Assembly: GCA_963774265.1 (NCBI GenBank)
Contig: CAVZDU010000001.1
Coordinates: 960,001 to 1,024,000, forward strand
Direction of reading: 5' to 3'
DNA: 64,000 nt
Source of the DNA: an uncultured Chloroflexia bacterium
GTDB taxonomy: Bacteria; Chloroflexota; Anaerolineae; CG2-30-64-16
Each line of letters opens with the position of its first letter. The stretch's first letter is position 1. Below are positions 1 to 20,857 of the stretch, one piece after another. The position numbers were made by a program, and so were the translations under genes. The notes under the pieces were generated by a model. It saw nothing but the letters and a program-made list of their open reading frames with translations, was not told where the DNA came from and made no database searches.

Positions 1-220
1 TTACACCACGGTGAATATGACCATCGGGAAAATCCGTGACTTTATAGACCGTGGGGAGGCCGAGTTATTGAGCGAGCCGCTCAAGGAGGAGATCACTGAA
101 AAGTTGACCGCATTGCAGGCCGCCATGGACGCGGCGCCCAAGCCCCTCGCCTGGAAAATGCGAGCGAAGCTGGGCACCCGCGTTCCCTGGTATGAAGAAG
201 TTGAAGAAGTGCATCGCTGA
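1..220 (+). CDS. 5'-truncated conserved protein (C-terminus ...KPLAWKMRAKLGTRVPWYEEVEE; possibly nucleotidyltransferase-like)
   Basis: Open frame at the window edge ending in TGA at 218-220. The W-K-x-R-A-K-x-G-T-R-x-x-W-Y-E-E-V-E tail looks conserved. Family assignment is tentative. Confidence 0.5.
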   Translation, partial: YTTVNMTIGKIRDFIDRGEAELLSEPLKEEITEKLTALQAAMDAAPKPLAWKMRAKLGTRVPWYEEVEEVHR

Positions 221-273: not shown

Positions 274-331
274 AATTCGAAATCGGTTCGAACCTCGCGC
301 CCCACAAGGACGCGCACGCGGAGTATCATCT

Positions 332-2155
332 ATGCCCACCAGTTATCTCAATCATTACCTCCACATCGATCTCAGCACCGGCAAGTGGACACCGTTTAGC
401 CTGCCGCAGGAGGTGCTCACACAATACGTCGGTGGCAAGGGTGTCGGCGCTTATCTCCTGGCGCAGCATCAGGACCCCCTGGCGGAACCGTTCGATCCGT
501 CGAATCCGTTGATCTTCATCATGGGACCGCTCACGGGCACCCAGGCGCCGTCGATGCGCTCTGGTGTCGTCTTTCAGTCGCCCGTCACCCGGTTGTTCAC
601 TGATTCGTACTACGGCGGCTTTTTTGGACAGGAGTTACGCTCGGCCGGATATGACGGCCTGCTGATCACGGGGCGTGCGCCTGAGCTGAGCCTTCTGGAG
701 ATCGACAACGATCGCCTGACCCTCAAGCCGGCTGCAGACCTGCAGGGGCTTGACACTTACGAGGTATACGATCGGCTGCGCCCCGCTTACCCTCAGAAGG
801 ATTGGCGCATCGCCTGTATCGGGCCCGCCGGGGAAAACCTGGTTAAGTTCGCGGTGATCGACTGCGACCCGCACCGGCAGGCCGGTCGCGGCGGCGGGGG
901 TGCAGTGATGGGGGCCAAGAACCTCAAAGCAATCGTCGTGCGGGGCACCCATCGCATTCCGCTCGCTGATCCCGACGCATTCAAAGTGACCTTGCGCGCA
1001 ACCCTGGCCACTATGAAGGATAACGCCTCGCTGCAAGGCTTCCGCTCCGGCGGCACCGCTGCCTCGATTCCCTGGGCTGATGTCGAGGGGCTTCTGCCGA
1101 CCCGGAACTTCCAGCGCGGCAGCTTTGCTGGCGCCGCAGCCCTGGGCGATGAGGCCCAGCGCGCCAAGTTCTGGGACAAAGACACGGCCTGCGCCGTGTG
1201 CCCGATCGCCTGCAGCAAGGATGGCAGCATCAAGGAGGGCGAGCACGCAGGACTGAAGGGTGATACGCTGGAATATGAGAGCGCAGCCATGCTGGGCAGC
1301 AACATCGAGGTGGGTGACACAATCGATGCCGTCTGTCTCGGCTTGCTGTGCGACAAGCTCGGGTTGGACACCATCTCGGCCGGCGCAGTGCTCAGCTTTG
1401 CGTGCGAGGCCGTCGAGAAGGGCTTGCTCGACGCGGATGTGCGGTTCGGCGATGCAAAGAGCCTTTCCAGCATGCTGCTTGACATTACACATCGCTACGA
1501 GGCGGGGGATCTGCTGGCCGAGGGCGTGGCCGCGGCCGCATCCAAACTGGGCGGCGATGCCCCGAACTTCGCTATCCACGTTAAGGGCCTGGAACTGCCG
1601 GCGTGGGGACCGCGCGGTGCACCCGGCATGGGGCTGGCCTACATGACCGGCGACCGGGGCGGCTGTCACCAACGCGCATTCCCCATCCTTTATGAGGTCG
1701 GCGGCGAGACCTGGAAAGGGCAGACGTACGAACGCCTGGCGCTTGACGGGAAGGCGCAGTTGCTGGCCGAGCTGCAAAACAAGCTGGCCGGGCTGGATAC
1801 CATGACCACGTGCGATTTTGCGCGCTACGGCGTCACTGAGGAACAATATCTCGACCTGTTTGCTGCCGCCACAGGCCGGCGCATCGGGCAAGACGAACTC
1901 TATCAGCTCGGCGAGCGCATCTGGAACCTGACGCGGCTCTTCAATTTGAAGGCTGGCATGACCGCGGCACAGGAGGACTTGCCGGGTCGCTTTAAGAGCG
2001 AACCCCTGGCAGACGGCCCCGCGGCCGGACACTACTTCGCCCAGGCCGATATCGAGTCGCTGCGCTCTGACTACTATGTCGTGCGCGGCTGGGATCAGAA
2101 CGGCGCGCCCACGCCAGAAAAACTCGCCGCCCTTGGGGTGGTGTATCCGCAATAA
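332..2155 (+). CDS. aor: Aldehyde:ferredoxin oxidoreductase family (tungstopterin)
   Basis: YVGGKG, IGPAGENLV, AGRGGGGAVMGAKNLKAI, CxxCPIAC, EYES, CDKLGLDTIS, DRGGCH, YYxxRGWD motifs. GGAG RBS before ATG 332. Confidence 0.92.
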   Translation: MPTSYLNHYLHIDLSTGKWTPFSLPQEVLTQYVGGKGVGAYLLAQHQDPLAEPFDPSNPLIFIMGPLTGTQAPSMRSGVVFQSPVTRLFTDSYYGGFFGQELRSAGYDGLLITGRAPELSLLEIDNDRLTLKPAADLQGLDTYEVYDRLRPAYPQKDWRIACIGPAGENLVKFAVIDCDPHRQAGRGGGGAVMGAKNLKAIVVRGTHRIPLADPDAFKVTLRATLATMKDNASLQGFRSGGTAASIPWADVEGLLPTRNFQRGSFAGAAALGDEAQRAKFWDKDTACAVCPIACSKDGSIKEGEHAGLKGDTLEYESAAMLGSNIEVGDTIDAVCLGLLCDKLGLDTISAGAVLSFACEAVEKGLLDADVRFGDAKSLSSMLLDITHRYEAGDLLAEGVAAAASKLGGDAPNFAIHVKGLELPAWGPRGAPGMGLAYMTGDRGGCHQRAFPILYEVGGETWKGQTYERLALDGKAQLLAELQNKLAGLDTMTTCDFARYGVTEEQYLDLFAAATGRRIGQDELYQLGERIWNLTRLFNLKAGMTAAQEDLPGRFKSEPLADGPAAGHYFAQADIESLRSDYYVVRGWDQNGAPTPEKLAALGVVYPQ

Positions 2156-2198
2156 TAGCAGCGCCTATTGCAATTCAATTTGGTCAAAGGAGACACCT

Positions 2199-3365
2199 AT
2201 GGTTAATCTGCGGTCCTTCGAAGTCCCTACTGTCGTCAAGCATGCTCCCGGTGCAGTCGAGTGCCTGGCGGATCAAGTCAAGGCCTTGGGCATTGTTCGC
2301 CCAATGATCGTCACGGACCAGGGCCTGGTCAAAGCCGGCATCGTGGATCGAGTGACGGAAGTTTTGCGCGGGGGCAACGTCGACTATCTTCTGTTCGACC
2401 GTGTGGTGGCAAACCCGCCGATCAAGCTGGTGGATGACGCCGCGGTGCTCTATAAGACAGAGAAATGCGACGGTCTGATTGGCGTTGGCGGCGGCAGCCC
2501 GATGGACACGGCCAAGGCAATTGGCGTGGTGGCCGAAAATGGCGGCTCGATCCTGCAATACGAGTGGGCAGATCCACAGCCCATCGTGCGGCCCATCCCC
2601 CCGCTGATCACCGTCCCGACCACGGCCGGCACCGGCAGTGAGGTGACCCTCTGGTCCGTAATCACTGACCCGAATCGGCACATTAAGTACAACGTGGGTG
2701 GAACCCCGTTTATCGCGGCCAAGATGGCGTTGATCGACCCGCTACTGATGCTGGACATGCCCGCGCACATCACCGCCAGCACGGGCCTGGATGCACTGAC
2801 GCATGCCATCGAGTGCTACACATGCGCATACGCTCAGCCGTGGCCGGATGCTGTGGCTCTCTGGGCGATGGAGACGCTGGCGCAATGGCTGCCTATTGCG
2901 TTCGCCCAGGGCCATAACGTCGAGGCCCGGTACAAGGTCGCTATGGCCGCCATGCTCGCCGGCATGTCCTACGGCACGGAAAGCGCCGGCGCCGTGCATG
3001 CCATGAGCCAGACGGCTGGTGGTTACTACGATCTGCCCCACGGCGTCCTGACCGCGGCCATGCTGCCCCCTGTCATGGCCTACAATTACCTGGGTGAGCC
3101 GCAGAAGTATGCGCGCATCGCGCAGGCGATGGGCGTCAACACCTGGGGTATGACCCAGCTCGAGGCGGCCGAGTCTGCGGTCGACGCGGTGCGGGACTTC
3201 GTCAAGCTCCTCGAAATCCCGACGGTGACCGAGTTGGGGGTGAAGAAGGAAGACATGCAGATGTTGGTCGACATGGCGTACAACGATCCACAAACGATCG
3301 GGAACCCCCGCGACCTGATCCGGAAGAGCTATGAGCAGATCTACGGAATGTGCCTTGCGGCTTGA
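2199..3365 (+). CDS. Iron-containing alcohol dehydrogenase, GbsB (choline dehydrogenase)-like
   Basis: GGGSPMDTAKAIG, PTTAGTGSEVT, DALTHAIECYT. Subfamily-type segments FEVPTVVKH, YGTESAGAVHAMSQT and DPQTIGNPRDL recall Bacillus GbsB. AAGGAG RBS. Confidence 0.85.
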   Translation: MVNLRSFEVPTVVKHAPGAVECLADQVKALGIVRPMIVTDQGLVKAGIVDRVTEVLRGGNVDYLLFDRVVANPPIKLVDDAAVLYKTEKCDGLIGVGGGSPMDTAKAIGVVAENGGSILQYEWADPQPIVRPIPPLITVPTTAGTGSEVTLWSVITDPNRHIKYNVGGTPFIAAKMALIDPLLMLDMPAHITASTGLDALTHAIECYTCAYAQPWPDAVALWAMETLAQWLPIAFAQGHNVEARYKVAMAAMLAGMSYGTESAGAVHAMSQTAGGYYDLPHGVLTAAMLPPVMAYNYLGEPQKYARIAQAMGVNTWGMTQLEAAESAVDAVRDFVKLLEIPTVTELGVKKEDMQMLVDMAYNDPQTIGNPRDLIRKSYEQIYGMCLAA

Positions 3366-3757: not shown

Positions 3758-5152
3758 ATGTCTAGTCGAAACCGTGGCTCTCGGACCGGGAGCCTTTTGG
3801 CCCTCTTAATGGTTCTTACGATAGCCCTGTCGCTCGCCGGCTGTGCACAACCAGCCGCACCGACTGCTGCCCCCCAGGCAGCCGCACCGACTGCTGCCCC
3901 CCAGGCAGCCGCACCGACTGCTGCCCCCCAGGCAGCTGCACCGACTGCTGCCCCTCAGGCGGCCGCACCGAGCAAAGTCTTCAAATTGGGCGTGGACGGC
4001 CCCTTCAGCGGGCCGGGCGCGAAGACCGGCGAAGAGTTCAGGCGCTCGTTCCAGATGGCCATGGAGGCGATCAATTACACAATTGGTGATTACAAGATCG
4101 AGCCTGTCTGGATCGACGACCAGTCCGACCCGGCCAAGGGCGCCGCGGCCTACGAGCAGGCCGTCGTGCAGGATAAGATCCAGGCGGGGATTCTGCAACT
4201 GGAACAGCTCGGTGGCGGTTGCGCTCATGGAATTCACCGCCAAGTACAAGATCCCTCACTTCTTCGGTTTCGGCGCCACCGAGGTGGTCAATGAGACCTT
4301 TGCGTCTGATCCCGAGAAATACGGCTACTGGATGAATCAAGGGTTGGGCGTCGCCGAGCAAGCTAACGATATCTTACGTCGATGCGTTGGAAGATGCGAT
4401 TGCCAAGGGCACCTATCAAGCCGGAAGCCAAGACGGTCGCTCTCGCCGGCGAGGACACCGACTGGGGACGCAGCTTCCTGCGGAGCCATCAAGGGCCAGT
4501 TCGAAGCGAAGGGTTGGAAGATCGTCTGCTGAAGAGTACTTCCCGATCGATCAGAGCGAGTTCACGCCCCTGATGACCAAGCTGAAGGAGAGCGATCCGG
4601 CCGTGTTGGTGGTGTCCAGCGTTGTGACCCCGGTGTCGTCGGCTGCAATCAAGCAGGCGGAACAGGTGGGACTGAAGAGTCTGATCATTGCCGACGGCCT
4701 GGGGTGGGCTGGCAACTGGTACGAGCTGACGGGCAAGTCCTCCGAATTATGTGCTGGACCAGATCCCACAGCTGGCGACGGATAAGGCGAAGGCGTTCGC
4801 CAAGGCGTACGAGACCAAGTACGGCGACAAGCCGAGCCCGTCGGCAGCCGGGTTGGCGTATGATGGCACGAACTACTTTATCGCCATGGCCAACGAGGTC
4901 ATCAAGGTGAACAACGGTGAGTTGACCGGCGAGGCCATCTACAAATTCGTGAAGGAAAAAATCTGGACGGGCGAGTGGATCTATAAGGACGGGATCATCA
5001 TGCCGGCGTACAAGTATATGCCGGACACGATTCCGGATCCAGTGGTCGGCGCCGGCTATTACATGTTCCCGGTGCTGCAATACTTTGATGGCGAAAGCAA
5101 GATCGTGTTCCCCAACGACGTTGCTACGCAGCCTCTACAAGCCAAGCCGTAG
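3758..5152 (+). CDS. LivK-like ABC substrate-binding lipoprotein (several apparent frameshifts)
   Basis: Lipobox LAGC, Ala/Pro linker, KLGVDGPFSG, DDQSDP, NWNSSVAVA, GEDTDWGRS, GLAYDG spread across frames. Confidence 0.85.
3854..3970 (+). repeat. 27-bp tandem repeat (4 copies plus a partial) encoding an AAPTAAPQA linker
   Basis: GCCGCACCGACTGCTGCCCCCCAGGCA repeated. Confidence 0.95.
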
Positions 5153-5261: not shown

Positions 5262-5995
5262 ATGATCCTTGAGGCCAGCAATGTCGTGAAGAATTTTGGC
5301 GGCTTGACTGCCGTCAATCGCGTGTCGCTCCAGGTGGACGAGGGAGAAATCATCGGGCTGATAGGGCCCAACGGTGCTGGTAAGACGACTTTCCTCAACT
5401 GTTTGGCCGGCACCTTCAGGCCCAGCTGCAGGCACGGTGCACTTCCGGGGGGAGAACACAACTGGAGCTTCGGCAGACGTCATGTGCCACCGGGGTATGT
5501 CGCGTACTTTCCAGATTCCGCTTCCCTTTCCTAAGATGACGGTTCTGGAGAACGTCATGGTGGGAGCGCAATTTGGTGGTGGGAGCCGCCATCATGCGGC
5601 GCCTGCCAGGCAGCGGGCGGAGGAAGCGCTGGCTTTCGTGCAGTTTTCCTTGCCGCTCGATACACCGGCTCAGCTGGTGCAACGCGGTGCAGCTCAAACG
5701 CCTCGACCTGGCCCGTGCCTGGGCATGCAGCCCGAAGCTGCTGTTGCTTGACGAGCTGGCATCTGGGCTGACGCCTACCGAGTTGGACGAGATGATCACG
5801 TTGATCAGAAGCATCCGCGATCGCGGCGTGGCCATCATCGCCGTCGAGCACATTATGCGGGTGATCATGGGCATCTGCGATCGCATCCTGGTGATTCAGT
5901 ACGGCACGCCGATCGCCGAAGGCCTGCCCAACGATGTTTTGCGCGATCCGAAAGTGATTGAGGCCTATCTTGGTGACGAGAAGGTCGCACACTAG
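5262..5995 (+). CDS. livG: LivG-type ABC ATPase (frameshifted)
   Basis: [39 protein letters not shown]. Confidence 0.85.
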
Positions 5996-6046
5996 CGCCG
6001 GCGCCACGGTACGAGGCGCTTACACTTGTGCGCCCGGGAGGCACCC

Positions 6047-6756
6047 TTGCTCGAAATAAGAAACATCGACACCAGCTATGATTTCCTCCAGGTACTCTGG
6101 GATGTATCCTTGTCGGTCCAGAAGGGCGAGTTCGTGGCCTTGATCGGCCCGAACGGAGCGGGCAAGACCACGACGCTTGCGCACCATTGCTGGGTTGCTG
6201 CGACCCAGGGCGGGTCAAGTCATCTTTGACGGCAGATCCATCAGCGGTCTGACGGCCGCACGAGATCAGCCGCATGGGCCTGGCCTACGTTTCGGAGAGT
6301 CTCAACCTCTTCACTAACATGTCGGTGCACGAGAATCTGCTGCTGGGCGCATACTCCATACAGGACAAAGCAACAGCGCGAAGAGACGTTGCAGTTCGTA
6401 TTCGAATTGTTTCCCCGGTTGGAAGAACGCGCCAGACAGTTGGCCGGCACGATGAGCGGCGGCGAGCGCAAGATGCTGGCCATCGGCCGGGGCATCATGT
6501 CCAGCCCGCGGGCTATGCTGATCGACGAGCCGTCTCTCGGTCTGGCGCCTCACCTGGCTCACGAGGTCTTTCAGGGATTGCGTTACGCTTAACCAGCGTG
6601 GGGTCACGATTCTTCTGGTCGAGCAGAACGTGCACATGACTCTGGAAATCATCCAGCCGGGCCTACGTGATGGAGCATGGCCGCGTGGTCATGGAGGGCC
6701 CGAGCCGGGAGCTGAAACAGAACGAGCACGTCCGCAAGGCCTATCTCGGGATTTGA
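6047..6756 (+). CDS. livF: LivF-type ABC ATPase (frameshifted)
   Basis: [41 protein letters not shown]. Confidence 0.85.
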
Positions 6757-6767
6757 TGAGGAGAGCC

Positions 6768-7821
6768 ATGAGTACCAGCAAAGATCCTCCTGCCGCGAGT
6801 ACGGCAAGACTTCAACCCGTCGCCGCGCAGGAATATACCCGCCCTGGCGGTTGGCGTGCTGTCGTTGGTGATCGCGGTATTGATTGGGGTCAACGGCGGG
6901 CCGGCGCAGCTGTTCACCACCCTGGTCACAGGCGGCATGTGGGCACTGATGTCGGTTGGGCTGGCGCTTATCTTCGGTGTGATGAACATCCCGCATTTCG
7001 CCCACGGCGAATCGTTCATGATCGGGGCCTACGTCGCCTGGTTCGTGTTCACCCCCTTCAAATCGCACGCTGCAGCAGCACCCCAATGCATTTCCTGCGC
7101 GCGGTGGCGCCTTTCGTCGGCATGCTTGCGGCCGCCGTCGTCGGCGCAGTTATGGGTGTAGTGATCGAGCGTCTGATCTTTGCACCCTGCGTCACCGGAC
7201 TAAGGAAGGCTGGGTTATGAACGCCTTTCTGTTGACGGTGGGCCTGTCCTTCGTTCTGACCAACGGCACTACCTTGGCGCTTGGCCCCGACTATCGAGGC
7301 GTGCCGCAATACTGGGACGTGCCGTCACTGCAGTTCCTGGGCATGCGCGTCACCGTGGACCGGTTGGTGGCTTTCGCCGTTGCGTTGCTCGTGATCGGCG
7401 CCCTGTGGCTTTTTCTGCAGCGCACCAGTACCGGCCGGGCGATCCGTGCCGTCTCGCAGGATGAGACGGGCGCGCAGATGGTGGGCATCAATCTCGATGG
7501 CATCCAGACGCTGACCTTTTCCCTGGCCACCGCGACTGCCGCGCTGGCGGGCGCCTCCCTGCTTTTCATGTTCCCGGCCTATCCCCTCGTGGGCCTCAAC
7601 CCGCTCTACTTTTCCTGGTACGTGGTGATGCTCGTCGGACTTGGCAATGTCCCCGGCGCTATCATCGGCGGCTTTATCGTGGCTCTGTTGCAGACGGCAA
7701 CACAACAGTTTTTCGGCATCTCCTGGGAAACGTTATCCCGACAGCAATCATGGTCATCGTGCTGCTGGTGGCGCCTTCGGGCATCTTCGGCAGCGAGGTC
7801 AAGGGCGTTCAAGAACAGTGA
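6768..7821 (+). CDS. livH: LivH-type ABC permease (frameshifted)
   Basis: GLALIFGVMNIPHFAHGE, GRAIRAVSQD, GLGNVPGAIIGG. Confidence 0.85.
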
Positions 7822-7837
7822 GGCGTGAGTGATAGCG

Positions 7838-8902
7838 ATGAAGAGTAACCTCGAGGACAAACAGCAACATGCCGCGGTGAGAGGTGGCCTGTGGCAGACC
7901 CTGGTGGGCGGCTGGATCGCATCGGCATTCACGCCGCTCGGATTGGCCCTGTTGGTGATCATCGCCATCTTGCCGAACGTGCCGCCCTTCAACCAGGAGC
8001 ATATGCTGCGCTGGCTGATCGCCGGCGCGTTCCTCGGACGCCCAGGCAGTGGCCTTCGATTTCACGGCCGGGTTCATCAATGTGGTTAATTTCGGCTTTG
8101 CCGCCATGGTCGGATTGGGAGCCTACACCTCAGCCCTCTTGGCCAACACCGCTCCGTACCTGGTGCTCAGGCCGGGGATATCGCCCTGGATCGGCATTTG
8201 GGTTGGCGCACTGGTGGCAGGCCTGCTGGGCTTGGTGCTCGGCATGCTTACTTTGCGTCTGCGTGGCATCTATGCAGCGGTGATGGCCTGGTTTGTGGGC
8301 ATTGCCCTGCTGGGTTTGGCCAACAATCTGACCAGGCTGACGCGCGGTTCGATGGGTTTGCATCCGCGGGCTCTGTTCACCACGACTGATAATCTGCCGT
8401 ACTTCTACGTCATCCTGGGCATGCTGCTGCTCATCTACGTCACCTTGCACCTGGTCACCAAGTCGTCGTACGGCCTGGCCTTCAAGGCCATCGGGCAGAA
8501 CATCGATGCCGCGCGGGCTTCAGGGATCGATCCGACGAAGTACCGGGTGTTCAACTTCGCGCTGTCGTGCTTCTTCGCGGGCCTGCTCGGTGGATTCTAT
8601 GCACACTACTACGGCTCGCTGACCCCTAAGAACGTGATGCACACCTCAAAGACAGTGGAAGTGCTCGCCAGTTGCCTATATCGGCGGTCGCGGCAGCCTG
8701 TGGGGCGGCATCGCGTTCGCGTTCCCCTTCATCTTCTTCATCGAGTACTTGCGCTCCAGTCTGACCGATCTTGCCCGGGCTGCACCTGGTGATTTACGGC
8801 ATCGTGATGATGCTGGTGATGATCTACTATCCCGCCGGGTTCGCCGGGGCCTACTACTGGCTGACCTCGAAACTGCGCCGGGGCAGCCGCCCAAAGAGGT
8901 AG
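7838..8902 (+). CDS. livM: LivM-type ABC permease (frameshifted)
   Basis: NFGFAAMVGLGAY, LRLRGIY, GLAFKAIGQN, GGRGSLWG. Confidence 0.85.
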
Positions 8903-8922
8903 ATCAAAGGGGAAGATAAGGC

Positions 8923-9210
8923 GTGACCCGATCTGATCATTATCCCGCCGAGTTTGAGCAATTCACCATCCAGGTGGACGGTGAATCGCTGCCGGCCCGG
9001 CGCGGGCAGACGGTGGCGGCGGTATTGACCGGCGCAGGCCGGCTGGTCCTGCGCCGGACCGCCAGCGGCGCGCCGCGCGGTGTCTTCTGTGGCATGGGCG
9101 TCTGCTATGACTGTGTCGTGACGATCGATGGCGTTCCCGATCAGCGCGCGTGCATGACGCCCGCGCGCCCGGGCATGTGGGTGCAAACGCACTCCCGCCA
9201 GGAACCTTGA
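8923..9210 (+). CDS. [2Fe-2S] subunit (HcnA/LhpF-like) of a heterotrimeric amino-acid dehydrogenase
   Basis: RGVFCGMGVCYDCVVTIDG...RACMT. Confidence 0.88.
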   Translation: MTRSDHYPAEFEQFTIQVDGESLPARRGQTVAAVLTGAGRLVLRRTASGAPRGVFCGMGVCYDCVVTIDGVPDQRACMTPARPGMWVQTHSRQEP

Positions 9211-10751
9211 TGGGGCAACTCCTGGTGTCGACGCATTCTGATCCCTGTATCCTCGTCATCGGCGCCGGTCCTGCAGGTCTGGCAGCGGCCGTCACGGCTG
9301 CTGAACTCGGCCTACGCGTGGTGTTGATGGATGAGGCGGCCACTCCAGGTGGGCAGTATCTCTCTGGGGGTGACTCAGCCAGCGACGATCGTGCAGCCGC
9401 AGGGCACGGCTCTCAGGCAAAAGCGGAACGCGACGGAGCAGCGTTGATGGCCCGTGCAAACGTACTCAGCCGCGCGGCGGGATCCCGCCTCGGGCTTCGG
9501 TGTGGCGCGACCGTGTGGAGCCTCACTCCCAGTCCCGACGGGACGGCTCCCGGCCTCATCGCCATGGTCCATCACGGTGGCAGATACGGCACCCGGGCCG
9601 GCTCCGAGCGCGTCGAGGCGGATGCCGTCATCCTGGCCACGGGCGCGCGGGAGACGGTCGCTCCGTTTCCCGGCTGGACCTTGCCGGGGGTGATGACGGT
9701 GGGGGCGGCCCAATTGCTGGTCAAGCGCCACGGGGTCAGTCCCGCTGGGCCGGGGCAGCGAGTCTTGCTCGCGGGATCAGGACTGCTCTTGCTGCCGGCG
9801 GCGGCACGGTTAGTCGAGGCCGGCGCATACGTCGTGGGAGTTCTGGAAGCCGCGCACCTGGATGCATCCACCATTCGCCAAGCCGCCTTGTCCGGGATTT
9901 CGGAATGGGCGCCGGCATTGTGGGATCGGTCAGGCGAAGGCTGGCACTATCTGTCCGCTTTGCGCAAGGGCCGCGTCCCATATCGGTTTGGCCGGGCGGT
10001 GGTCCGGGCAAGGGGAGTCGAGCGTGTGGAAGCGGTGGATATCGCACGACTGGACCGCACAGGCGCACCGCTCCCGGGGCTTACGGAGACGTGGCCGGTC
10101 GATCTCTTGTGTGTCGGCTACGGTTTAGTCCCGAATATCGAATTGGCCCAACTGGCAGGGGCCAGGGTCCGCTACAGTGCGGAATTGGGTGGATGGGCCG
10201 TTGAAGTGGATGAACTATCGGGGGTGCAGACGACCGTGCCGGGTCTGTTTGTGGCAGGAGAGACCTCCGGCATCAGAGGTGCGGGCAGCGCATTGTTGAG
10301 CGGGCGGCTTGCGACAATGAGCGCCGCGGCATGGCTGGGTCGGCTGCCCCAGGCCGCACTGCAGGCCGAATTGGCCGGCGCCGCGCGGCGCCGGCGGCAG
10401 GATGCGCGTTTCGGCGCCCTGATCAATCTGCTGTTTGGCGCTCCGGACGGGCTAACGCGGGCCATCCCCGACGACACACCCATGTGCCGGTGCGAGGAAG
10501 TGACCGCCGGACAGGTGCGGGCAGCCATTGCAGCGGGTTCACGGTCGTTGGATGCGTTGAAACCGGCCTTGCGTGTCGGGCAGGGCCTTTGTCAGGGGCG
10601 CACATGTGGTCCGGCGTTGGCGGGCATGATCGCCATCGAAACAGGTAGATCTGTTGAGGCATCCGGACTGTTTCAAACGCGCCCGCCGGTCAAGCCTGTG
10701 CCGCTCGCCGCAATCGCCGGACCGGCTGCAGTGGGGGATGGTTCACTGTGA
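9210..10751 (+). CDS. FAD/NAD(P) oxidoreductase with BFD-like [2Fe-2S] domain (HcnB/LhpE/OoxA-like)
   Basis: IGAGPAGLAAA, LATGARE, PFPGWTLPGV, CRCEEVT, GxGLCQGRTC, RPPVKP. Confidence 0.88.
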   Translation: MGQLLVSTHSDPCILVIGAGPAGLAAAVTAAELGLRVVLMDEAATPGGQYLSGGDSASDDRAAAGHGSQAKAERDGAALMARANVLSRAAGSRLGLRCGATVWSLTPSPDGTAPGLIAMVHHGGRYGTRAGSERVEADAVILATGARETVAPFPGWTLPGVMTVGAAQLLVKRHGVSPAGPGQRVLLAGSGLLLLPAAARLVEAGAYVVGVLEAAHLDASTIRQAALSGISEWAPALWDRSGEGWHYLSALRKGRVPYRFGRAVVRARGVERVEAVDIARLDRTGAPLPGLTETWPVDLLCVGYGLVPNIELAQLAGARVRYSAELGGWAVEVDELSGVQTTVPGLFVAGETSGIRGAGSALLSGRLATMSAAAWLGRLPQAALQAELAGAARRRRQDARFGALINLLFGAPDGLTRAIPDDTPMCRCEEVTAGQVRAAIAAGSRSLDALKPALRVGQGLCQGRTCGPALAGMIAIETGRSVEASGLFQTRPPVKPVPLAAIAGPAAVGDGSL

Positions 10752-11959
10752 AGGCCCACGCGGATGTGATCGTTGTCGGTGGCGGCATTGTGGGCGCAGC
10801 GTGCGCTTACTACCTGGCGCAGTCCGGCATCGGCGTCCAGGTCCTGGAGCGCCAGTTCTTTGCCAGCGGCACATCTCGTGCATGTGACGGATTGATCCTT
10901 TCCTGGGATAAGCAGTCGCCGGCCGAGCTTGAACTGGGACAGGCCAGCGCCGCACTATGGGCCAGTTTGGCTGATGAGCTGCCTTTCGATTTCGAGTACC
11001 GGCGCCAGGGCTCGATTGTCCTTGCCGAAACAGGGGATACCCTGGCTGACCTGCACAAGAAAGCGGTCGACCTGGGGGAGGCCGGCATCCGCGCAGAGAT
11101 GTTGGATGCAGCGGGGCTACTGGTGCTCGAACCCAACCTGGCGCCGGATCTGGCCGGGGGCGTCTTCTACCCTGACGATGCACAGCTCGACGCCCGCCTG
11201 GCGACGCTGGCATTGCTTGAAGAGGCTGCCCGCCTCGGTGCTGACCTGAGGCAAGGTGTCGAAGTACGCGGCTTACAGCGGCAGCACGATGGCCGCGTGA
11301 CGGGCGTCCTCACCGCTGATGGCGCGATCGAAGCGGATGACGTGGTGATCGCCGGTGGGGTGTGGAGCAGCGAGATGCTGCGCGAAGCCGGGCTGGACCT
11401 GCCGATCCGACCGCGCAAGGGGCACATCGTCGTCGCGTCGGTGCGCCACATGCCCGACCTGATTGCCCATCCGCTGGCGGAGGGAAGCTATGCGGCCTCC
11501 GTGAAATCGTCAGCCGAAGATGTGCAGGTGGCGCTCATCGCAGAAAAGACGGCCAGCGACACGCTGCTTCTGGGCAGCAGTCGTGAGTTCTGCGGCTTCG
11601 ATCGGTCGGTTCGAGTGGAGGTCATCCAGGCGATTGCGGCGCGCGCGATCCGATTCCTGCCTGCACTGGCTACGGCAAGTGCAATGCGGAGTTATGCAGG
11701 CCTCCGGCCGTGGAGCCCGGATCATCTCCCATTGATCGGACCGGTGGACACCCATCCGGGGTTGTTTTTGGCTGCAGGGCATGAAGGAGCCGGCATCGGC
11801 CTCGCGCCGATCACGGGCCGCATGATCGCTGACTGGATCAGGTGCTACCCTGACGGGCCTACCGTCGACGCAGAACCGCGGCGCGCTGGCGTCGCACCAG
11901 ATCCCCACGGGGGACTTCCCATGGGGTGGACCGCAACTCGGCCGGGACGTTTTCTCTAG
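10748..11959 (+). CDS. DAO-family FAD oxidoreductase (HcnC/LhpB-like catalytic subunit)
   Basis: VGGGIVGAACAY, PRKGH, YAGLRPWSPDHLPLIG, GHEGAGI. Confidence 0.88.
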   Translation: MKAHADVIVVGGGIVGAACAYYLAQSGIGVQVLERQFFASGTSRACDGLILSWDKQSPAELELGQASAALWASLADELPFDFEYRRQGSIVLAETGDTLADLHKKAVDLGEAGIRAEMLDAAGLLVLEPNLAPDLAGGVFYPDDAQLDARLATLALLEEAARLGADLRQGVEVRGLQRQHDGRVTGVLTADGAIEADDVVIAGGVWSSEMLREAGLDLPIRPRKGHIVVASVRHMPDLIAHPLAEGSYAASVKSSAEDVQVALIAEKTASDTLLLGSSREFCGFDRSVRVEVIQAIAARAIRFLPALATASAMRSYAGLRPWSPDHLPLIGPVDTHPGLFLAAGHEGAGIGLAPITGRMIADWIRCYPDGPTVDAEPRRAGVAPDPHGGLPMGWTATRPGRFL

Positions 11960-12006
11960 GTGTCTGGAAACGATCCGGTCCAAATAACTGATGTGAGGTG
12001 GAGAAT

Positions 12007-12876
12007 ATGGCACAAGCTCTAACAACGGTCGTCTCTTCGTCCAAGAAAAGGGTTGAGATCAATCGGGAGAAGCCCACAGTGATCGTCGGAGAGCGCATCA
12101 ATCCGACTGGGCGAAAGCAGGTGCTTGCGGCGTTCGCTGCCGGCGATTTCGGCATTGCCCGCAGTGATGCAATTGCACAGGTCGAGGCGGGTGCGCACAT
12201 GTTGGATGTGAATGCAGGCGTGCCCGGCGCGGATGAACCGGAGTTGCTGGTCCAGGTGTTGAAGAGCGTCATGGAAGTCACTGACGTTCCTTTGTGCATC
12301 GACACGGCTGATCCCCTGGCGCTCGCCGCCGCACTAAAGCTGTATCAAGGCAAGGCGCTGATCAACTCCTGTAACGGTGAGGAGCGCTCCCTCGATGCGG
12401 TGCTGCCGATTGTCAAGGAGCACGGCGCTGCCGTGATCGCCCTTTGCATGGATGATGATGGCATCCCTGATACCGCCCAGGGCCGGTTGAAGGTGGCGGG
12501 AAAGATCATCGAGCGCGCAGGCAAGATGGGCATCCCCATCGAAGACATTGTAGTCGATCCGCTCGCCCTGACAATGGGGGCGGACAGTACCGCTGGTCGC
12601 GTGGCACTGGATGCTATTGAGTTGATCGTGGCCGAATTCGGTGTCAACATCACCATGGGCGCCAGCAATATCTCGTTTGGCATGCCCGACCGTCCGTACA
12701 TCAACTCGGCATTCATCGCGATGGCGATCCACGCGGGCCTGACCTGCCCGATCACCAATCCGTTGGTCACTCCCGTGATCACAGCCATTCTTGCCGCGGA
12801 TCTGGCCATGGGCCACGATTCGTACGGCTCGCGGTGGATCAAGGCCTATCGCAAGCGCCAGAGCACCGGCGCCTGA
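12007..12876 (+). CDS. Methylcorrinoid:tetrahydrofolate methyltransferase (pterin-binding, AcsE/MetH-like)
   Basis: IVGERINPTG, LDVNAG, PLCIDT, LINS, DPL, GASNISFG. Confidence 0.9.
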   Translation: MAQALTTVVSSSKKRVEINREKPTVIVGERINPTGRKQVLAAFAAGDFGIARSDAIAQVEAGAHMLDVNAGVPGADEPELLVQVLKSVMEVTDVPLCIDTADPLALAAALKLYQGKALINSCNGEERSLDAVLPIVKEHGAAVIALCMDDDGIPDTAQGRLKVAGKIIERAGKMGIPIEDIVVDPLALTMGADSTAGRVALDAIELIVAEFGVNITMGASNISFGMPDRPYINSAFIAMAIHAGLTCPITNPLVTPVITAILAADLAMGHDSYGSRWIKAYRKRQSTGA

Positions 12877-12917
12877 CAGTTACGCAGGCGATCGCCTGCA
12901 CCCAGGGTGAGGCGCAT

Positions 12918-13565
12918 ATGGTTGGGGAGACATTCACGCTGACCGATGCCCAACGGGCATACCAGCAGATCAAGGATCGGATTATCACAACGGCGATGCA
13001 GCCGGGCGCGGTCATCCAGGAAGCTGACTTGATGAGCGAGCTGGGGTTGGGCCGCACTCCTGTGCGTGAAGCGCTGAAGCTCCTGGAGGCGGAAAACCTT
13101 GTCGTGGTCTCCCCCCGGCGCGGCATTTTTGTCACCGATGTCACCTTGACGGATCTGCTGCACGTGCAGGAAATCCGTCTTGAACTGGATTCGCTGTCCG
13201 CGCGGCTGGCTGTGCAACGCGCGATGCCTGTAGAGGTTGCTGAGTTGCGCAGACTGATCGCCGAAGCCAGGAAGTGCGAGGGCCACGGTGACCCGCAGGC
13301 GCTGCTAGCCATTGACCGTGAGCTCCATGCCGTACTGCGGGAAGCGTCCCACAATCGACTGTTGGCGAACGAATGCGAAATGCTGTTCAACCTGTCCCTG
13401 CGCATCTGGTACCTGTTCGTTCGCCGTCTCGAACCTCAGCATCTCGCGGAGGATGCCTTCGATGAGATCCTGGAGGCCATCAATACCGGGAATATCGCCC
13501 AGGCGGATCGTGCCATGCGGCGCCACATCATGTCTTTCGGCGATTCGATCAAACTGATTCTCTGA
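12918..13565 (+). CDS. GntR-family regulator (FCD domain)
   Basis: LGLGRTPVREALKLL...PRRG wHTH. FCD-like C-terminus (DRELH...N...MRRH). Confidence 0.9.
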   Translation: MVGETFTLTDAQRAYQQIKDRIITTAMQPGAVIQEADLMSELGLGRTPVREALKLLEAENLVVVSPRRGIFVTDVTLTDLLHVQEIRLELDSLSARLAVQRAMPVEVAELRRLIAEARKCEGHGDPQALLAIDRELHAVLREASHNRLLANECEMLFNLSLRIWYLFVRRLEPQHLAEDAFDEILEAINTGNIAQADRAMRRHIMSFGDSIKLIL

Positions 13566-13592
13566 TCCAATCATAGCAAGGGAGGCTAAGCT

Positions 13593-14232
13593 GTGAGTGA
13601 AGTTCTGATGAAAATATCTGAAGCGATCATCGAAGGCAACGTCGATGACATTGTCGATCTGACGGAGGAGGCCCTGGACGAGGGCTCCACTGCCGAGGAA
13701 GTCTTGAACCTGGGGCTAATGGCGGGCATGGACTACGTCGGCGTCGAGTTCAAGGCCGGCAATATGTTCGTCCCGGAGGTGCTGCGCTCGGCTAAGGCGA
13801 TGCAGTCCGCTATGGAGCTGCTGCGGCCACTGCTGGCGAAGGCGGGCATCAAGCACACCGGCAAGTTGCTGCTCGGCACCGTCAAGGGCGACTTGCATGA
13901 CATCGGCAAAAATCTGGTCGGCATGATGTGTGAGGGCGCCGGGTTCGAGGTCACGGACCTCGGCAAGGATATCGACGCCCGAACAGTTCGTGGCTGCGAT
14001 CAAAGAGCGGCAGCCCGATGTGTTGGGCATGTCCGCGCTTTTGACCACGACCATGCGCGCGATGGGACATACCATCAAGGCCCTGGAAGAAGCGGGTCTG
14101 CGCGATCAGGTTAAGGTGATGGTCGGCGGCGCACCTGTGACGCAGGCATTTGCGGATCAAATCAACGCCGACGGTTATGCGCCGAACGCGGCAGCCGCAG
14201 CGGAGCTGGCTCGCAAGCTGGTTGCTGCATAG
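13593..14232 (+). CDS. Corrinoid (B12-binding) protein 1 (one frameshift near 13975)
   Basis: FVPEVL, GTVKGDLHDIGKNLV (DxHxxG), GMSALLTTTM, MVGGAPV. Confidence 0.92.
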
Positions 14233-14278
14233 ACTTCAGCGCATCCCGCGAGGGGATGGTTCCCAAAGGAGAACCTAC

Positions 14279-15743
14279 ATGAGGACAAACTACGTAGCCA
14301 ATGCTGGCGTGCGCTTCAATGTGTTCTCGCAGGACCAGTTGGAGGAGCTGTTCAACGGCGTGTTGCACCTCTTGCAGTACACGGGTCTGGACGTAAAACA
14401 CGAGGAAGCACGTGACATTCTGGCGAAAGCCGGTGCATGGGTTGACGGCGAGCGTGTGCGGCTGCCCTCACACATGGTGAAGGATGCGTTGCGCAAGGCG
14501 CCGCGCAGCTTCACCCTCTGGGCTCGCGACGGCAATCCGAAGCATAACATCCACATCGGCCCTGGCCGCGCGCACTTCGGCCCCGGCCCCACGTGCACGC
14601 ACTTCATCGACGCGGAGACGTTGGAGCGCCGGCCGTACACAAAGGCAGACGTGCCGTTGGTGGCGCGGCTGGTGGATGCCCTGCCCAACATCGACTTCTG
14701 CGAGTCATTGGGCACGGTGGATGATGTGCACTTCGACTTGGGCGCGCTGTACGAGTTTGCGGGCATGTTCCCCAACACCAGCAAGCCCATTGTCGCCTGG
14801 TCATACGACAAGTTCGACTCGGCCGGCATTCACGAGATCGCCGTGGCCGAGGCCGGCGGGCAGCGGGCGTTCGAGCAGCGGCCCACCTACGTCCACTACT
14901 GCGAGCCGCTGTCGCCGCTGGTCAGCACGTTCGAGGCGCTCGACAAGCTGATCTTCGCCGCCACGCACCGCGTGCCCGCTGGTCTTCACGCCCTGCCCCA
15001 TTGCAGGCGGCACCGCGCCGATCACCGGCGCGGGCATCATCACCATGGGCGCGGCCGAGTCGTGGATGGGCCTGACGCTGGCACAAATCCTCCAGCCGGG
15101 CCTGCCCTTCTTCATGGGCGGCGTGTTCTCGGCGATGGACATGAACACGATGATCCTGGCCTACGGCGCGCCGGAACTGCCGCTGTACATGGCCGGCCTG
15201 ACCGAGCTGGCGCACTATGCCGGACTGCCGCTGTGGCAGACGGGCGGCTGCACCGACTCAAAGAGCTTCGACGGCCAGGCCATGATCGAAGGCTCGATGT
15301 CGGTGTTCTTCTCGGCGCTCACCAGCGGCGACCTGTGTCACGATGTGGGCTACACCGAAAGCGCCATGACCGGCTCGCTCTTCCAGCTTTGCGCCATGGA
15401 CGAGGCCATCGGCTACTCGCGGCGCATCACGCGCGGCATCGAGGTCAACGATGACACGCTGGCCGTGGAGGTCATCAACAAGGTCGGTCCCAACAACCAC
15501 TACCTGCGCCAGCCGCATACCCGCAAGTATTACAAGAGCGAGTACTTCTATCCCAAGCTGCTCGACCGGCAGGACTTCGAGAACTGGGAGTCCAGCGGCA
15601 GCATGACGATGAAGGATCGCACCATCGCCCGCGTGCGCGACATCCTGGCGACGCACAAGGCCTCGCCGGTCAAGCCGGAGACCCAGAAGGTCATCGAGAA
15701 GGTTCTGGCGGAGGCGGAGGATCGGGTCAAGGACAAGGTTTAG
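14279..15743 (+). CDS. Trimethylamine methyltransferase (MttB) family protein 1, non-pyrrolysine (frameshift near 14980)
   Basis: EPLSPL, AGGTAPITGAG, MDMNT, YGAPE, GCTDSK..DGQA, HDVGY, VGPNNHYL. Confidence 0.9.
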
Positions 15744-15763
15744 TTCACGCAAGAGAGGACACC

Positions 15764-16406
15764 ATGAGCAGACTACTCGAAAAAATGTCCACCGCCATCC
15801 TGGAAGGGGATGCGGAAAAGATCCCCAAGCTGGTGAAGAAGGCGCTGGGCGAGGGCGTATCGGCCAAAGACATCCTGGACAACGGCCTGTTGGTCGGCAT
15901 GAACGAGGTCGGTGTACGTTTCAAGGCCGGCGATATGTTCGTGCCCGAGGTGCTGATGTCGGCCGAGGCGATGCAGTCGGCCATGGTTGTGCTGCGGCCG
16001 CAACTGGCCAAGAGCGGCGCACAAGCAGATCGGCAAGGTGATGCTGGGCACGGTCAAGGGCGACCTGCACGACATCGGCAAGAACCTGGTGGGCATGATG
16101 TGCGAGGGCGCGGGCTTCGAGGTCATCGACATCGGCTTCAATGTCGATCCGGAGAAGTTCGTCGAGCAGATCAAGAAGCATCAGCCGCAGGTCGTCGGCA
16201 TGTCGGCCATGTTGACGACCACGATGCGCGCGATGGGCCACACGATCAAGGCGATCGAGGAAGCCGGCCTGCGCGACACCGTGAAGATCATGGTCGGCGG
16301 CGCGCCGGTGGACGCCGAGTTCGCCAAGCGCATCGGCGCGGACGGCTACGGCTCGAATGCGCCTGCCGGCGCCGATCTGGCCAAGAAATTCGTCGGCGCG
16401 GCCTGA
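15764..16406 (+). CDS. Corrinoid protein 2 (frameshift near 16020)
   Basis: GTVKGDLHDIGKNLVGMMCEGAGFEV, MSAMLTTTM. Close paralogue of corrinoid protein 1. Confidence 0.92.
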
Positions 16407-16409
16407 GCC

Positions 16410-17141: not shown

Positions 17142-17196
17142 CGTGCTTACTACGCACTCGAAAGCGTGCAGACGCACGAAGAGGAGATCAACGACC

Positions 17197-18711: not shown

Positions 18712-18716
18712 CTTTC

Positions 18717-20807: not shown

Positions 20808-20839
20808 CGATTGAAGATCCAAGATTGAAGGCTGAAGAT
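20805..20839 (+). repeat. Heptamer array (TGAAGAT-like, 5 units)
   Basis: TGACGAT TGAAGAT CCAAGAT TGAAGGC TGAAGAT, starting at the upstream gene's TGA. Confidence 0.8.
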
Positions 20840-20857
20840 CCTGCAGGGGAGGATGGC

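What the first reader, a model, noticed from the sequence alone, without database searches (positions are those of the whole stretch)
332..3365. Candidate anaerobic choline-to-glycine betaine route: GbsB-like dehydrogenase paired with a tungsten AOR instead of GbsA
Seen: an AOR gene directly followed by an Fe-ADH with GbsB-type segments (FEVPTVVKH, YGTESAGAVHAMSQT, DPQTIGNPRDL), next to an MttB-family demethylation operon. Known: Bacillus GbsB oxidises choline to betaine aldehyde and NAD-dependent GbsA makes betaine; non-Pyl MttB homologues (MtgB, MtpB, MtcB) demethylate quaternary amines. Inference: choline is oxidised to betaine with capture of reduced ferredoxin, then demethylated to methyl-THF. 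This would be a TMA-free choline pathway distinct from CutC cleavage. The GbsB similarity is recalled from memory, not computed.
Basis: partly seen in the sequence, partly recalled or inferred. Interest (0 to 1): 0.7.

Follow-up and report, generated by a model that had tools for sequence, protein, structure and literature searches.

The report
Tungsten aldehyde oxidoreductase paired with choline dehydrogenase
In a group of uncultured Anaerolineae bacteria, a choline-dehydrogenase-type gene sits beside a tungsten-type aldehyde oxidoreductase where relatives carry an ordinary aldehyde dehydrogenase, which suggests an untested, ferredoxin-linked way of turning choline into glycine betaine without oxygen.

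Summary
Window 332-2155 encodes an intact single-subunit AOR-family enzyme. Window 2199-3365 encodes an intact Fe-ADH that scores 562.5 bits on the NCBIfam GbsB choline dehydrogenase equivalog (cut-off 550); the next family scores 339.

The pairing is conserved. Orthologues of this AOR (at least 72% identity, "AOR-A") occur in 5 of 401 genomes of the class. In 4 of the 5 the GbsB-like ADH lies just downstream; in the fifth the two genes sit at two contig ends.

A second, unrelated AOR orthogroup ("AOR-B", 33-37% identical to AOR-A) lies directly downstream of GbsB-like ADHs in six other genomes. More distant Chloroflexota have the same ADH, often in the same cassette, with an ordinary ALDH instead. 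The ten AOR-linked genomes lack an orthologue of that ALDH.

This fits non-orthologous displacement of the betaine-aldehyde step by AOR. No enzyme activity was tested. The MttB genes in the window are about 9 kb away, frameshifted and of unknown substrate. Anaerobic choline-to-betaine-to-demethylation has already been proposed for another bacterium.

Verdict: new variant of a known kind, moderately high interest.

The parts
2..217 (+). 3' end of gene Y. This is a ~252-aa nucleotidyltransferase-fold protein with a weak NTP_transf_5 match. It is the last gene of the conserved upstream cassette: X metallophosphoesterase, then APC permease, then Y.
   Evidence: tblastn of L026/L104 Y proteins hits window 2-217 and the upstream stretch L102 13462-14217. 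Pfam NTP_transf_5 33.8 bits for the L026 copy. Atlas clusters are named 'nucleotidyltransferase family'.
332..2155 (+). AOR-A: single-subunit aldehyde:ferredoxin oxidoreductase family protein, 607 aa, intact.
   Evidence: Pfam AFOR_N and AFOR_C. 1AOR 400 bits. In the printed alignment the CxxCxxxC motif, the fourth Cys, and the Glu and His aligned to Pf Glu313 and His448 are kept. Orthologues (71-92% identity) lie next to GbsB-like ADHs.
2199..3365 (+). GbsB-type iron-containing alcohol dehydrogenase (candidate choline dehydrogenase), 388 aa, intact.
   Evidence: NF053866 562.5 bits against cut-off 550. Relatives are named 'choline dehydrogenase' by JGI. GGGS, Asp198, His202, His267 and His281 are invariant in alignment A1.
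3758..5152 (+). Peripla_BP_6 substrate-binding protein, split by frameshifts.
   Evidence: Pfam. Intact orthologues follow the ADH in L024, L025 and L029.
5262..8792 (+). Liv-type ABC transporter ATPases and permeases, split by frameshifts.
   Evidence: Pfam ABC_tran, BCA_ABC_TP_C and BPD_transp_2. The intact version is in L029.
8923..11959 (+). Three-subunit flavoprotein: Fer2_4; Pyr_redox_2 + Fer2_BFD + SO_alpha_A3; DAO. It is sarcosine-oxidase/opine-oxidase-like and is a candidate dehydrogenase for a demethylated amine.
   Evidence: Pfam and NCBIfam.
11998..12876 (+). Methyl-corrinoid:tetrahydrofolate methyltransferase (pterin-binding).
   Evidence: NF005719 301.6 bits against cut-off 259.
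12834..13565 (+). GntR/FCD regulator.
   Evidence: Pfam.
13593..18711 (+). Two corrinoid-protein genes, two MttB-family methyltransferase genes and a DUF1638 gene. All four methyltransferase and corrinoid genes are frameshift-split.
   Evidence: Pfam B12-binding_2, B12-binding, MTTB and DUF1638. The split frames are visible.
18954..23319 (+). Hydantoinase-like protein, a second GntR/FCD regulator, and a RACo-type corrinoid activase.
   Evidence: Pfam.

Best explanation
The two genes form an alcohol-to-acid oxidation module inside a conserved choline-catabolic cassette of Anaerolineae.

Proposed steps:
1. The GbsB-type Fe-ADH oxidises choline to betaine aldehyde with NAD(P)+. This is inferred from family membership.
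2. The neighbouring single-subunit AOR oxidises betaine aldehyde to glycine betaine and passes the electrons to ferredoxin. This is inferred from position, from the family's known chemistry, and from the fact that an ALDH occupies this role in relatives.
3. Making the carboxylate turns choline into the kind of acidic quaternary amine that MttB-family methyltransferases accept. The methyl groups can then go to tetrahydrofolate through corrinoid proteins encoded nearby or elsewhere in the genome.

What is shown: gene integrity, family membership, conserved linkage, and alternation of AOR with ALDH. What is inferred: both substrates, the electron acceptor, the metal, and the fate of betaine.
For: 1. 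ADH identity. It scores 562.5 bits against a cut-off of 550 on the GbsB equivalog; the next family, lactaldehyde reductase, scores 339. Only B. subtilis among 14 controls passes. Eight of eight further relatives tested also pass, at 558-594 bits, while the genome's own paralogue scores 340.

2. Linkage from the AOR side. AOR-A orthologues (E <= 1e-150, 72-92% identity) occur in 5 of 401 class genomes, whereas a GbsB-model hit over the cut-off occurs in 28 of 401. The ADH lies just downstream of AOR-A in 4 of the 5 (an HAD gene lies between them in one). In the fifth, the AOR ends 97 bp before a contig end and the ADH starts about 100 bp from another contig end.

3. Linkage from the ADH side. 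AOR-A lies upstream in 5 of 16 genome-contig loci and in 9 of 80 metagenome loci.

4. Absence elsewhere. Four genomes whose ADH belongs to the same clade but has no adjacent AOR have no AOR-A orthologue anywhere; their best matches are 36-42% identical.

5. A second AOR lineage. AOR-B members are 57-74% identical to each other and 33-37% identical to AOR-A. AOR-B lies directly downstream of over-cut-off ADHs in six genomes. It also occurs in 3 of 80 metagenome loci, in one of them about 2.4 kb away.

6. ALDH in the same place. Among 19 more distant Chloroflexota loci, 11 have an ALDH directly downstream and 0 have an AOR. Twelve of 80 metagenome loci have ADH-MttB-ALDH-Y operons.

7. Complementarity. 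The 10 AOR-A or AOR-B genomes have no orthologue of that ALDH. The best identity is 32-42%, and two genomes have no match at E <= 1e-40. Cassette ALDHs are 65-75% identical to each other.

8. ADH trees. All AOR-A-linked ADHs fall in one clade, supported 99/99 among 38 rows and 100 among 62 rows. The AOR-B label needs at least 3 changes on the tree.

9. Context fits choline and betaine. Neighbours include OpuAC transporters, GntR/FCD regulators, MttB, corrinoid proteins, DMGDH-like and GCV_T genes, HAD phosphatases and phosphodiesterases.

10. Own genome. There is no BADH equivalog (best 448.6 against 668.6) and no CutC over its cut-off (493 against 1050).

11. Precedent. An adjacent ADH+AOR pair is implicated by proteomics in methanol oxidation in Desulfotomaculum kuznetsovii (passage in PMC11505543).

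12. Rationale. The known MttB-family substrates before MthB all carried a carboxylate (PMC12155760, section 11).
Against: - No activity, expression or cofactor data exist.
- The ADH clears the equivalog cut-off by only 12 bits. No direct comparison with B. subtilis GbsB could be made.
- 56 of 80 metagenome loci, and many genome loci, show no aldehyde-oxidising gene in the fetched flanks. An unlinked enzyme can therefore evidently serve.
- The displaced ALDH does not itself reach the BADH equivalog (357-403 bits against 668.6). 'GbsA' is a positional label only.
- One AOR-B-like gene (L103) sits between class-III aminotransferases, not by an ADH.
- The window's genome has a second, non-GbsB Fe-ADH followed by yet another AOR paralogue. 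It has about seven AOR loci in all. ADH-AOR pairing may be a general habit of these organisms.
- No residue shared specifically by AOR-A and AOR-B marked a common pocket, apart from one Leu.
- No paper found reports an AOR acting on betaine aldehyde.
- The genome still has ALDH paralogues.
- Loci reached by different tools partly repeat the same genomes (identical rows), and kin are not independent.
Confidence: 0.55

Rival explanations
1. The architecture is the same but the substrate differs. The ADH oxidises a related amino alcohol, and the AOR or ALDH makes the matching amino acid: dimethylglycine, sarcosine or glycine. One such alcohol is N,N-dimethylaminoethanol, released after MttB-type demethylation of phosphocholine and dephosphorylation. 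Others are N-methylethanolamine and ethanolamine.
For: HAD phosphatase, metallophosphoesterase and phosphodiesterase genes lie in the cassettes. MttB genes lie directly beside the ADH in many loci. Phosphocholine demethylation to dimethylaminoethanol phosphate is an established MttB-family reaction (PMC12155760, abstract). DMGDH-like genes lie nearby. The equivalog margin is small.
Against: The equivalog model was built for choline dehydrogenase and the ADH passes it. No MthK-type kinase was recognised in the cassettes by Pfam or NCBIfam. The ADH-MttB-ALDH gene order fits choline to aldehyde to betaine to demethylation equally well.
Confidence: 0.2
2. This is a generic alcohol/aldehyde module. 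The pair oxidises, or in reverse produces, ordinary alcohols such as ethanol, methanol or propanediol. The choline-like annotation overreaches.
For: ADH+AOR pairs for simple alcohols are known (passage in PMC11505543). The same genome has another Fe-ADH+AOR pair. The best solved ADH relatives are methanol and 1,3-propanediol dehydrogenases, at 275-278 bits.
Against: Scores on the lactaldehyde, EutG, methanol and AdhE models are all far below their cut-offs, whereas the GbsB model is passed. Conserved neighbours are quaternary-amine genes (OpuAC, MttB, DMGDH-like, GCV_T), not ethanol or diol genes. AOR-A is found only beside this ADH clade in the genomes searched.
Confidence: 0.1
3. Adjacency without pathway coupling. 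The AOR serves general aldehyde detoxification or another pathway. Betaine aldehyde is oxidised by one of the genome's unlinked ALDHs.
For: The genome keeps ALDH paralogues, including one intact at G000:C1:674104-675501 that scores 441-449 bits on the BADH model. Most ADH loci lack any linked aldehyde oxidiser.
Against: The intergenic gap is 44 bp on the same strand. Adjacency is kept down to about 72% AOR identity across three families of the class. A second AOR lineage has been recruited independently. The AOR and the cassette ALDH are distributed in a complementary way.
Confidence: 0.1

Closest known systems
Bacillus subtilis gbsAB (GbsB type-III choline dehydrogenase plus GbsA betaine-aldehyde dehydrogenase; recalled, the paper was not read here)
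   Same: The first enzyme is of the same equivalog family. A two-step alcohol-to-aldehyde-to-acid logic is encoded by adjacent genes.
   Different: The second enzyme is an AOR-family protein, not an NAD-dependent ALDH. The likely acceptor is ferredoxin. The context is catabolic (MttB, DMGDH-like, transporters, GntR/FCD regulators) rather than osmoprotectant synthesis. The organisms are Anaerolineae.
Pyrococcus furiosus AOR (PDB 1AOR) and other single-subunit tungsten AORs
   Same: Full-length match of 400 bits, with cluster cysteines and catalytic Glu and His kept in the alignment. No AorA- or AorC-like partner genes are adjacent.
   Different: About 72-92% conserved only within a narrow clade that is tied to a GbsB-like ADH. 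Many clade-specific residues near conserved motifs are of unknown meaning, for example D177, W248, D250, W425 and D441. The proposed substrate is a cationic aldehyde, which has not been reported for any AOR in the papers searched.
'Candidatus Formimonas warabiya' DCMF: anaerobic choline to glycine betaine to stepwise demethylation (PMC8163858, passages)
   Same: The overall route is TMA-free: oxidation to betaine followed by MttB-family demethylation into tetrahydrofolate-bound C1 units.
   Different: The authors name a choline dehydrogenase and a betaine aldehyde dehydrogenase in the DCMF genome, not an AOR.
Eubacterium limosum MthB/MthK phosphocholine demethylation (PMC12155760, abstract and sections 10-11)
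   Same: Both are anaerobic, TMA-free uses of choline that make it acidic before MttB-type demethylation.
   Different: There the acid group is added by phosphorylation and the product is dimethylaminoethanol. Here it would be added by oxidation to the carboxylate.
Desulfotomaculum kuznetsovii adjacent ADH + AOR for methanol oxidation (as cited in PMC11505543, passage)
   Same: Adjacent alcohol dehydrogenase and AOR genes are read as one alcohol-to-acid module.
   Different: The substrate is methanol and formaldehyde, and the ADH is not of the GbsB family.

Membership tests
GbsB-type choline dehydrogenase (NCBIfam NF053866, equivalog) | Whole-protein score at or above the curated cut-off of 550 bits. 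| tested here: met
   562.5 bits; the next family scores 339. In-genome scan gives 563.2.
GbsB-type choline dehydrogenase (NCBIfam NF053866, equivalog) | Fe-ADH fold with the NAD-binding GGGS motif and Asp/His/His/His metal ligands. The assignment of ligands is recalled. | tested here: met
   Pfam Fe-ADH plus ADH_Fe_C. G97-S100, D198, H202, H267 and H281 are invariant in 14 sequences.
GbsB-type choline dehydrogenase (NCBIfam NF053866, equivalog) | Oxidises choline to betaine aldehyde. | not testable with these tools
   This needs an enzyme assay.
gbsAB-type operon | An adjacent NAD-dependent betaine-aldehyde dehydrogenase (ALDH family). | tested here: not met
   There is no Aldedh gene in the window or next to the ADH in 13 close loci. 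An ALDH is present downstream in 11 of 19 distant Chloroflexota loci.
AOR family (tungstopterin aldehyde:ferredoxin oxidoreductases) | AFOR_N plus AFOR_C domains over the full length. | tested here: met
   232 and 381 bits.
AOR family (tungstopterin aldehyde:ferredoxin oxidoreductases) | Four cysteines for the [4Fe-4S] cluster and the catalytic Glu and His. Residue roles in P. furiosus AOR are recalled. | tested here: met
   In the printed alignment to 1AOR, CxxCxxxC, the fourth Cys, and the Glu and His aligned to Pf Glu313 and His448 are kept.
AOR family (tungstopterin aldehyde:ferredoxin oxidoreductases) | Tungsten cofactor and ferredoxin as acceptor. | not testable with these tools
   Sequence cannot tell W from Mo. 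No partner-subunit genes are adjacent.
E. coli YdhV-type AOR (NCBIfam NF007354) | Score at or above 868 bits. | tested here: not met
   159.9 bits, N-terminal part only.
MttB superfamily methyltransferase system (window 11998-23319) | MTTB catalytic subunit, corrinoid protein, corrinoid:THF methyltransferase and RACo-type activase. | tested here: met
   Pfam and NCBIfam hits for all four. The MttB and corrinoid genes are frameshift-split.
Glycine-betaine-specific MtgB/MtgC | Specific family score, or orthology to the ADH-linked MttB types. | tested here: inconclusive
   The corrinoid fragment scores 119.6 against 370 on the MtgC model. The best own-genome match to the ADH-linked MttBs is 41-42% identical.

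The most novel reading that the evidence does not exclude
Anaerolineae have rebuilt the choline-to-glycine-betaine pathway around tungsten AORs at least twice, using two unrelated AOR lineages slotted into one conserved cassette in place of the ALDH. This would give the first AORs dedicated to a quaternary-ammonium aldehyde. It would also give a ferredoxin-yielding, oxygen-independent, TMA-free sink for choline in soils and sediments that feeds MttB-type demethylation.
Probability: 0.4. Interest if true: 0.75.

Novelty: new variant of a known kind. Interest (0 to 1): 0.62.

Why it matters
Choline is a major source of trimethylamine, and so of methane and TMAO. Routes that consume it anaerobically without releasing TMA alter that budget.

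An AOR in place of betaine-aldehyde dehydrogenase would conserve the low-potential electrons of the aldehyde-to-acid step as reduced ferredoxin, which is useful to fermenters and syntrophs. It would make choline use depend on tungsten. It would also extend AOR substrates to a charged osmolyte precursor.

The alternation of ALDH, AOR-A and AOR-B in one cassette is a clean natural experiment in non-orthologous displacement, and a few enzyme assays can test it.

Tried and rejected
- A direct comparison or tree with B. subtilis GbsB or other characterised Fe-ADHs was not possible. No tool gave those sequences, so membership rests on the NCBIfam model and its control genomes.
- A search for residues shared by AOR-A and AOR-B but absent from 11 paralogues gave only L488 and a Tyr that P. 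furiosus AOR also has. There is therefore no convergent pocket signature.
- Atlas searches for cassette proteins X and Y returned only generic names, 'metallophosphoesterase' and 'nucleotidyltransferase family'.
- Sequencing runs: 8 runs hold at most 0.15 of the sampled words. Laying four of them gave only short contigs. These included one 253-base contig from a metatranscriptome library inside the AOR gene, with one mismatch. None bridged AOR and ADH, so there is no evidence on expression or co-transcription.
- Orthologues of the two ADH-linked MttB types were sought in the window's genome and not found; the best matches were 41-42% identical.
- Paper searches for an AOR acting on betaine aldehyde or choline found nothing relevant: 2 papers; 11 papers; 0 papers. 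One search was rejected for a syntax reason.
- Supplementary tables S4 and S5 of PMC12155760, which list genomes with mthK-mthB, were not opened. They might show whether Chloroflexota carry that rival pathway.
Full report
**What is there**

The window is G000:C1:960001-1024000 of a 5.5-Mb, 10-contig Chloroflexota assembly that is 84% complete. Close relatives are titled Anaerolineae or Anaerolineales MAGs.

ORF 251-2155 (+) encodes an AOR-family protein whose homology starts at 332. It has Pfam AFOR_N (232 bits) and AFOR_C (381 bits). Its best solved relative is P. furiosus AOR (1AOR, 400 bits, residues 8-604), followed by other single-subunit AORs and FOR. In the printed alignment the CxxCxxxC motif, the fourth cluster cysteine, and the Glu and His aligned to Pf Glu313 and His448 are kept. 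The roles of these residues are recalled, not computed here.

Forty-four bases after the AOR stop, behind AAGGAG, ORF 2199-3365 (+) encodes a 388-aa Fe-ADH. Both genes are intact. At least ten other genes in the window are split into neighbouring frames. That pattern looks like assembly indels spread over the whole window rather than decay of this locus.

**Is the ADH GbsB-like?**

- The protein scores 562.5 bits on NCBIfam NF053866, the equivalog 'choline dehydrogenase' CholDhdGbsBBac, whose cut-off is 550.
- The next models score far below their own cut-offs: lactaldehyde reductase 339, ErcA 326, and likewise EutG, AdhE and methanol dehydrogenase.
- In the tool's 14 control genomes only B. 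subtilis passes.
- JGI names many close relatives 'choline dehydrogenase'.
FEVPTVVKH is exact or near-exact only in the closer relatives.

The margin over the cut-off is small, and I could not align against GbsB itself.

**Is the AOR-ADH linkage conserved?**

*From the AOR side.* Orthologues of this AOR ('AOR-A', E <= 1e-150, 72-92% identity) occur in 5 of 401 sampled genomes of the class, in three families. In 4 of the 5, including the window's genome, the GbsB-like ADH is just downstream; in one of these an HAD gene lies between. In the fifth, the AOR ends 97 bp before a contig end and the ADH starts about 100 bp from another contig end. For comparison, 28 of 401 genomes of the class have an over-cut-off ADH.

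*From the ADH side.* AOR-A lies upstream in 5 of 16 genome-contig loci (L024, L025, L027, L028, L029). It also lies upstream in 9 of 80 metagenome loci.

*Absence elsewhere.* Four genomes whose ADH lies in the same clade but lacks an adjacent AOR have no AOR-A orthologue at all (best 36-42% identity), although they hold many AOR paralogues.

In the genomes searched, then, AOR-A exists only beside this ADH.

**A second AOR lineage and an ALDH alternate in the same place**

A different orthogroup, 'AOR-B', has members 57-74% identical to each other, 33-37% identical to AOR-A and at most 46% identical to other paralogues. It lies directly downstream of over-cut-off ADHs in six genomes: L031; L078/L104; L080; L085/L105; L087; L088/L106. 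It also appears in 3 of 80 metagenome loci, in one of them about 2.4 kb away.

In more distant Chloroflexota, where the ADH is 50-59% identical, 11 of 19 loci have an ALDH directly downstream and none has an AOR within 1.5 kb. Twelve of 80 metagenome loci carry ADH-MttB-ALDH-Y operons.

The ten AOR-A or AOR-B genomes have no orthologue of that ALDH. The best identity is 32-42%, and two have no match at E <= 1e-40. Cassette ALDHs are 65-75% identical to each other.

On ADH trees, all AOR-A-linked rows fall in one clade, supported 99/99 among 38 rows and 100 among 62 rows. AOR-B-linked rows occur in at least three places on the tree.

Some rows are the same genomes reached by two tools (identical rows), and kin are not independent. 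I therefore treat these counts as descriptive.

**The cassette**

The ADH, with or without an AOR, is preceded in many loci by three genes:
- X, a ~318-aa metallophosphoesterase-family protein.
- A ~555-aa APC-family permease.
- Y, a ~252-aa nucleotidyltransferase-fold protein.

An HAD phosphatase is often present as well.

The window's genome has the same order just upstream. X is at C1:956516-957547. The permease is frameshift-split at about 957708-959338. Y runs into window 2-217.

Other recurrent neighbours are OpuAC-type transporters, GntR/FCD regulators, MttB and corrinoid proteins placed directly beside the ADH, DMGDH-like, GCV_T and DAO genes, and type-I phosphodiesterases. This is the gene content expected for releasing, importing and degrading choline and betaine.

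**Mechanism proposed**

1. Choline is oxidised by the GbsB-type ADH to betaine aldehyde.
2. The aldehyde is oxidised by the AOR to glycine betaine, with reduction of ferredoxin.
3. Betaine, now an acidic quaternary amine, can be demethylated by MttB-family enzymes.

The last point has a published rationale: before MthB, all known MttB-family substrates bore a carboxylate, and E. limosum solves the same problem by phosphorylating choline (PMC12155760, section 11).

The window's genome has no BADH equivalog (448.6 against 668.6) and no CutC over its cut-off (493 against 1050). It has about 13 MttB loci.

All substrate assignments, the acceptor and the metal are inferences.

**What speaks against it, and the rivals**

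- Most ADH loci have no linked aldehyde oxidiser: 56 of 80 metagenome loci.
- The displaced ALDH is not itself a BADH equivalog (357-403 bits against 668.6).
- An AOR-B-like gene also occurs with aminotransferases (L103).
- The genome has another, non-GbsB Fe-ADH followed by a third AOR type.
- I found no residue signature shared by AOR-A and AOR-B.

The main rival keeps the architecture but changes the substrate. In it the ADH and AOR act on dimethylaminoethanol or other amino alcohols, after MttB-type demethylation of phosphocholine followed by dephosphorylation. The phosphatase genes in the cassettes hint at this. Generic alcohol oxidation, and mere adjacency without coupling, are less likely given the specific context and the complementary distribution of AOR and ALDH.

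The window's methyltransferase genes are complete as a system: two MttB, two corrinoid proteins, a corrinoid:THF methyltransferase that passes its NCBIfam cut-off, and a RACo-type activase. However:
- They start 8.6 kb downstream.
- They are frameshift-split.
- They sit with a three-subunit flavoprotein and an ornithine-cyclodeaminase-family gene.
- They are only 33-42% identical to the MttB types that flank the ADH in relatives.

Their substrate is open.

**Novelty**

A TMA-free anaerobic route from choline via betaine has been proposed for 'Ca. Formimonas warabiya' with conventional dehydrogenases (PMC8163858, passages). The MthB route has been demonstrated (PMC12155760, abstract and sections 10-11). 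Adjacent ADH+AOR modules are known for methanol (passage in PMC11505543).

Searches for an AOR tied to betaine aldehyde or choline found nothing relevant. Subscription journals are not covered by these searches.

The finding is therefore a new variant of a known kind: the betaine-aldehyde step taken over by AORs, apparently more than once.

Noticed in passing
G000:C1:956516-960217 (upstream of the window; locus L102 10516-14217) and window 2-217: A conserved trio precedes the ADH in many Chloroflexota loci, with or without an AOR: metallophosphoesterase X, APC-family permease, and nucleotidyltransferase-fold protein Y. The roles of X and Y are unknown. One possibility is release of choline from phosphodiesters. 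In this genome the permease is frameshift-split.
   Followed up: partly
window 2199-3365 (ADH residues 267-271) and alignment A1: All nine GbsB-model ADHs aligned read HAMSQ where the two other Fe-ADH paralogues of this genome read HAMAH or HGFAG. The second His of the usual HxxxH stretch is a Gln in this clade.
   Followed up: no
window 332-2155 (AOR residues 177-183, 244-250, 425-426, 441): Many residues are invariant in seven AOR-A sequences and absent from 11 paralogues. Examples are D177, C178, H181, W248, D250, W425, G426 and D441, several of them next to conserved motifs. Whether they line the substrate channel is unknown.
   Followed up: partly
window 8923-11959 and 24359-25336: A three-subunit flavoprotein (Fer2_4; Pyr_redox_2/Fer2_BFD/SO_alpha_A3; DAO) and an ornithine cyclodeaminase/mu-crystallin gene lie among the MttB genes. 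The same DAO+OCD+MttB mix follows the ADH in L026. This may point to proline-betaine-type or other N-methyl amino acid substrates.
   Followed up: no
G000:C6:156809-160262 (L002/L048): A second Fe-ADH (340 bits on the GbsB model, below the cut-off) is followed by a third type of AOR paralogue, 37% identical to AOR-A. The genome holds about seven AOR loci, several of them frameshift-split.
   Followed up: partly
L103 (G776:C32:76000-92000), 6857-8911: An AOR-B-like gene, 74% identical to the L031 AOR over the part compared, sits between two class-III aminotransferase genes, beside a saccharopine-dehydrogenase-like gene, an amino-acid permease and an AsnC regulator. This suggests oxidation of amino-acid-derived aldehydes.
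   Followed up: no
whole window: At least ten genes are split into adjacent reading frames. They include the substrate-binding protein at 3758-5152, the Liv ABC genes, both MttB genes, both corrinoid genes, an ABC/permease at 26942-28397, an SBP at 29949-30766, a C25 peptidase at 44526-47253 and a Lon-like protease at 56856-59006. This is consistent with indel errors of the assembly rather than local gene decay.
   Followed up: partly
window 37384-42018 (-) and 25407-26008 (-): There is a 1545-aa protein with many Big_9 and cadherin-like repeats, and a MazF/PemK toxin gene with a small upstream partner ORF.
   Followed up: no
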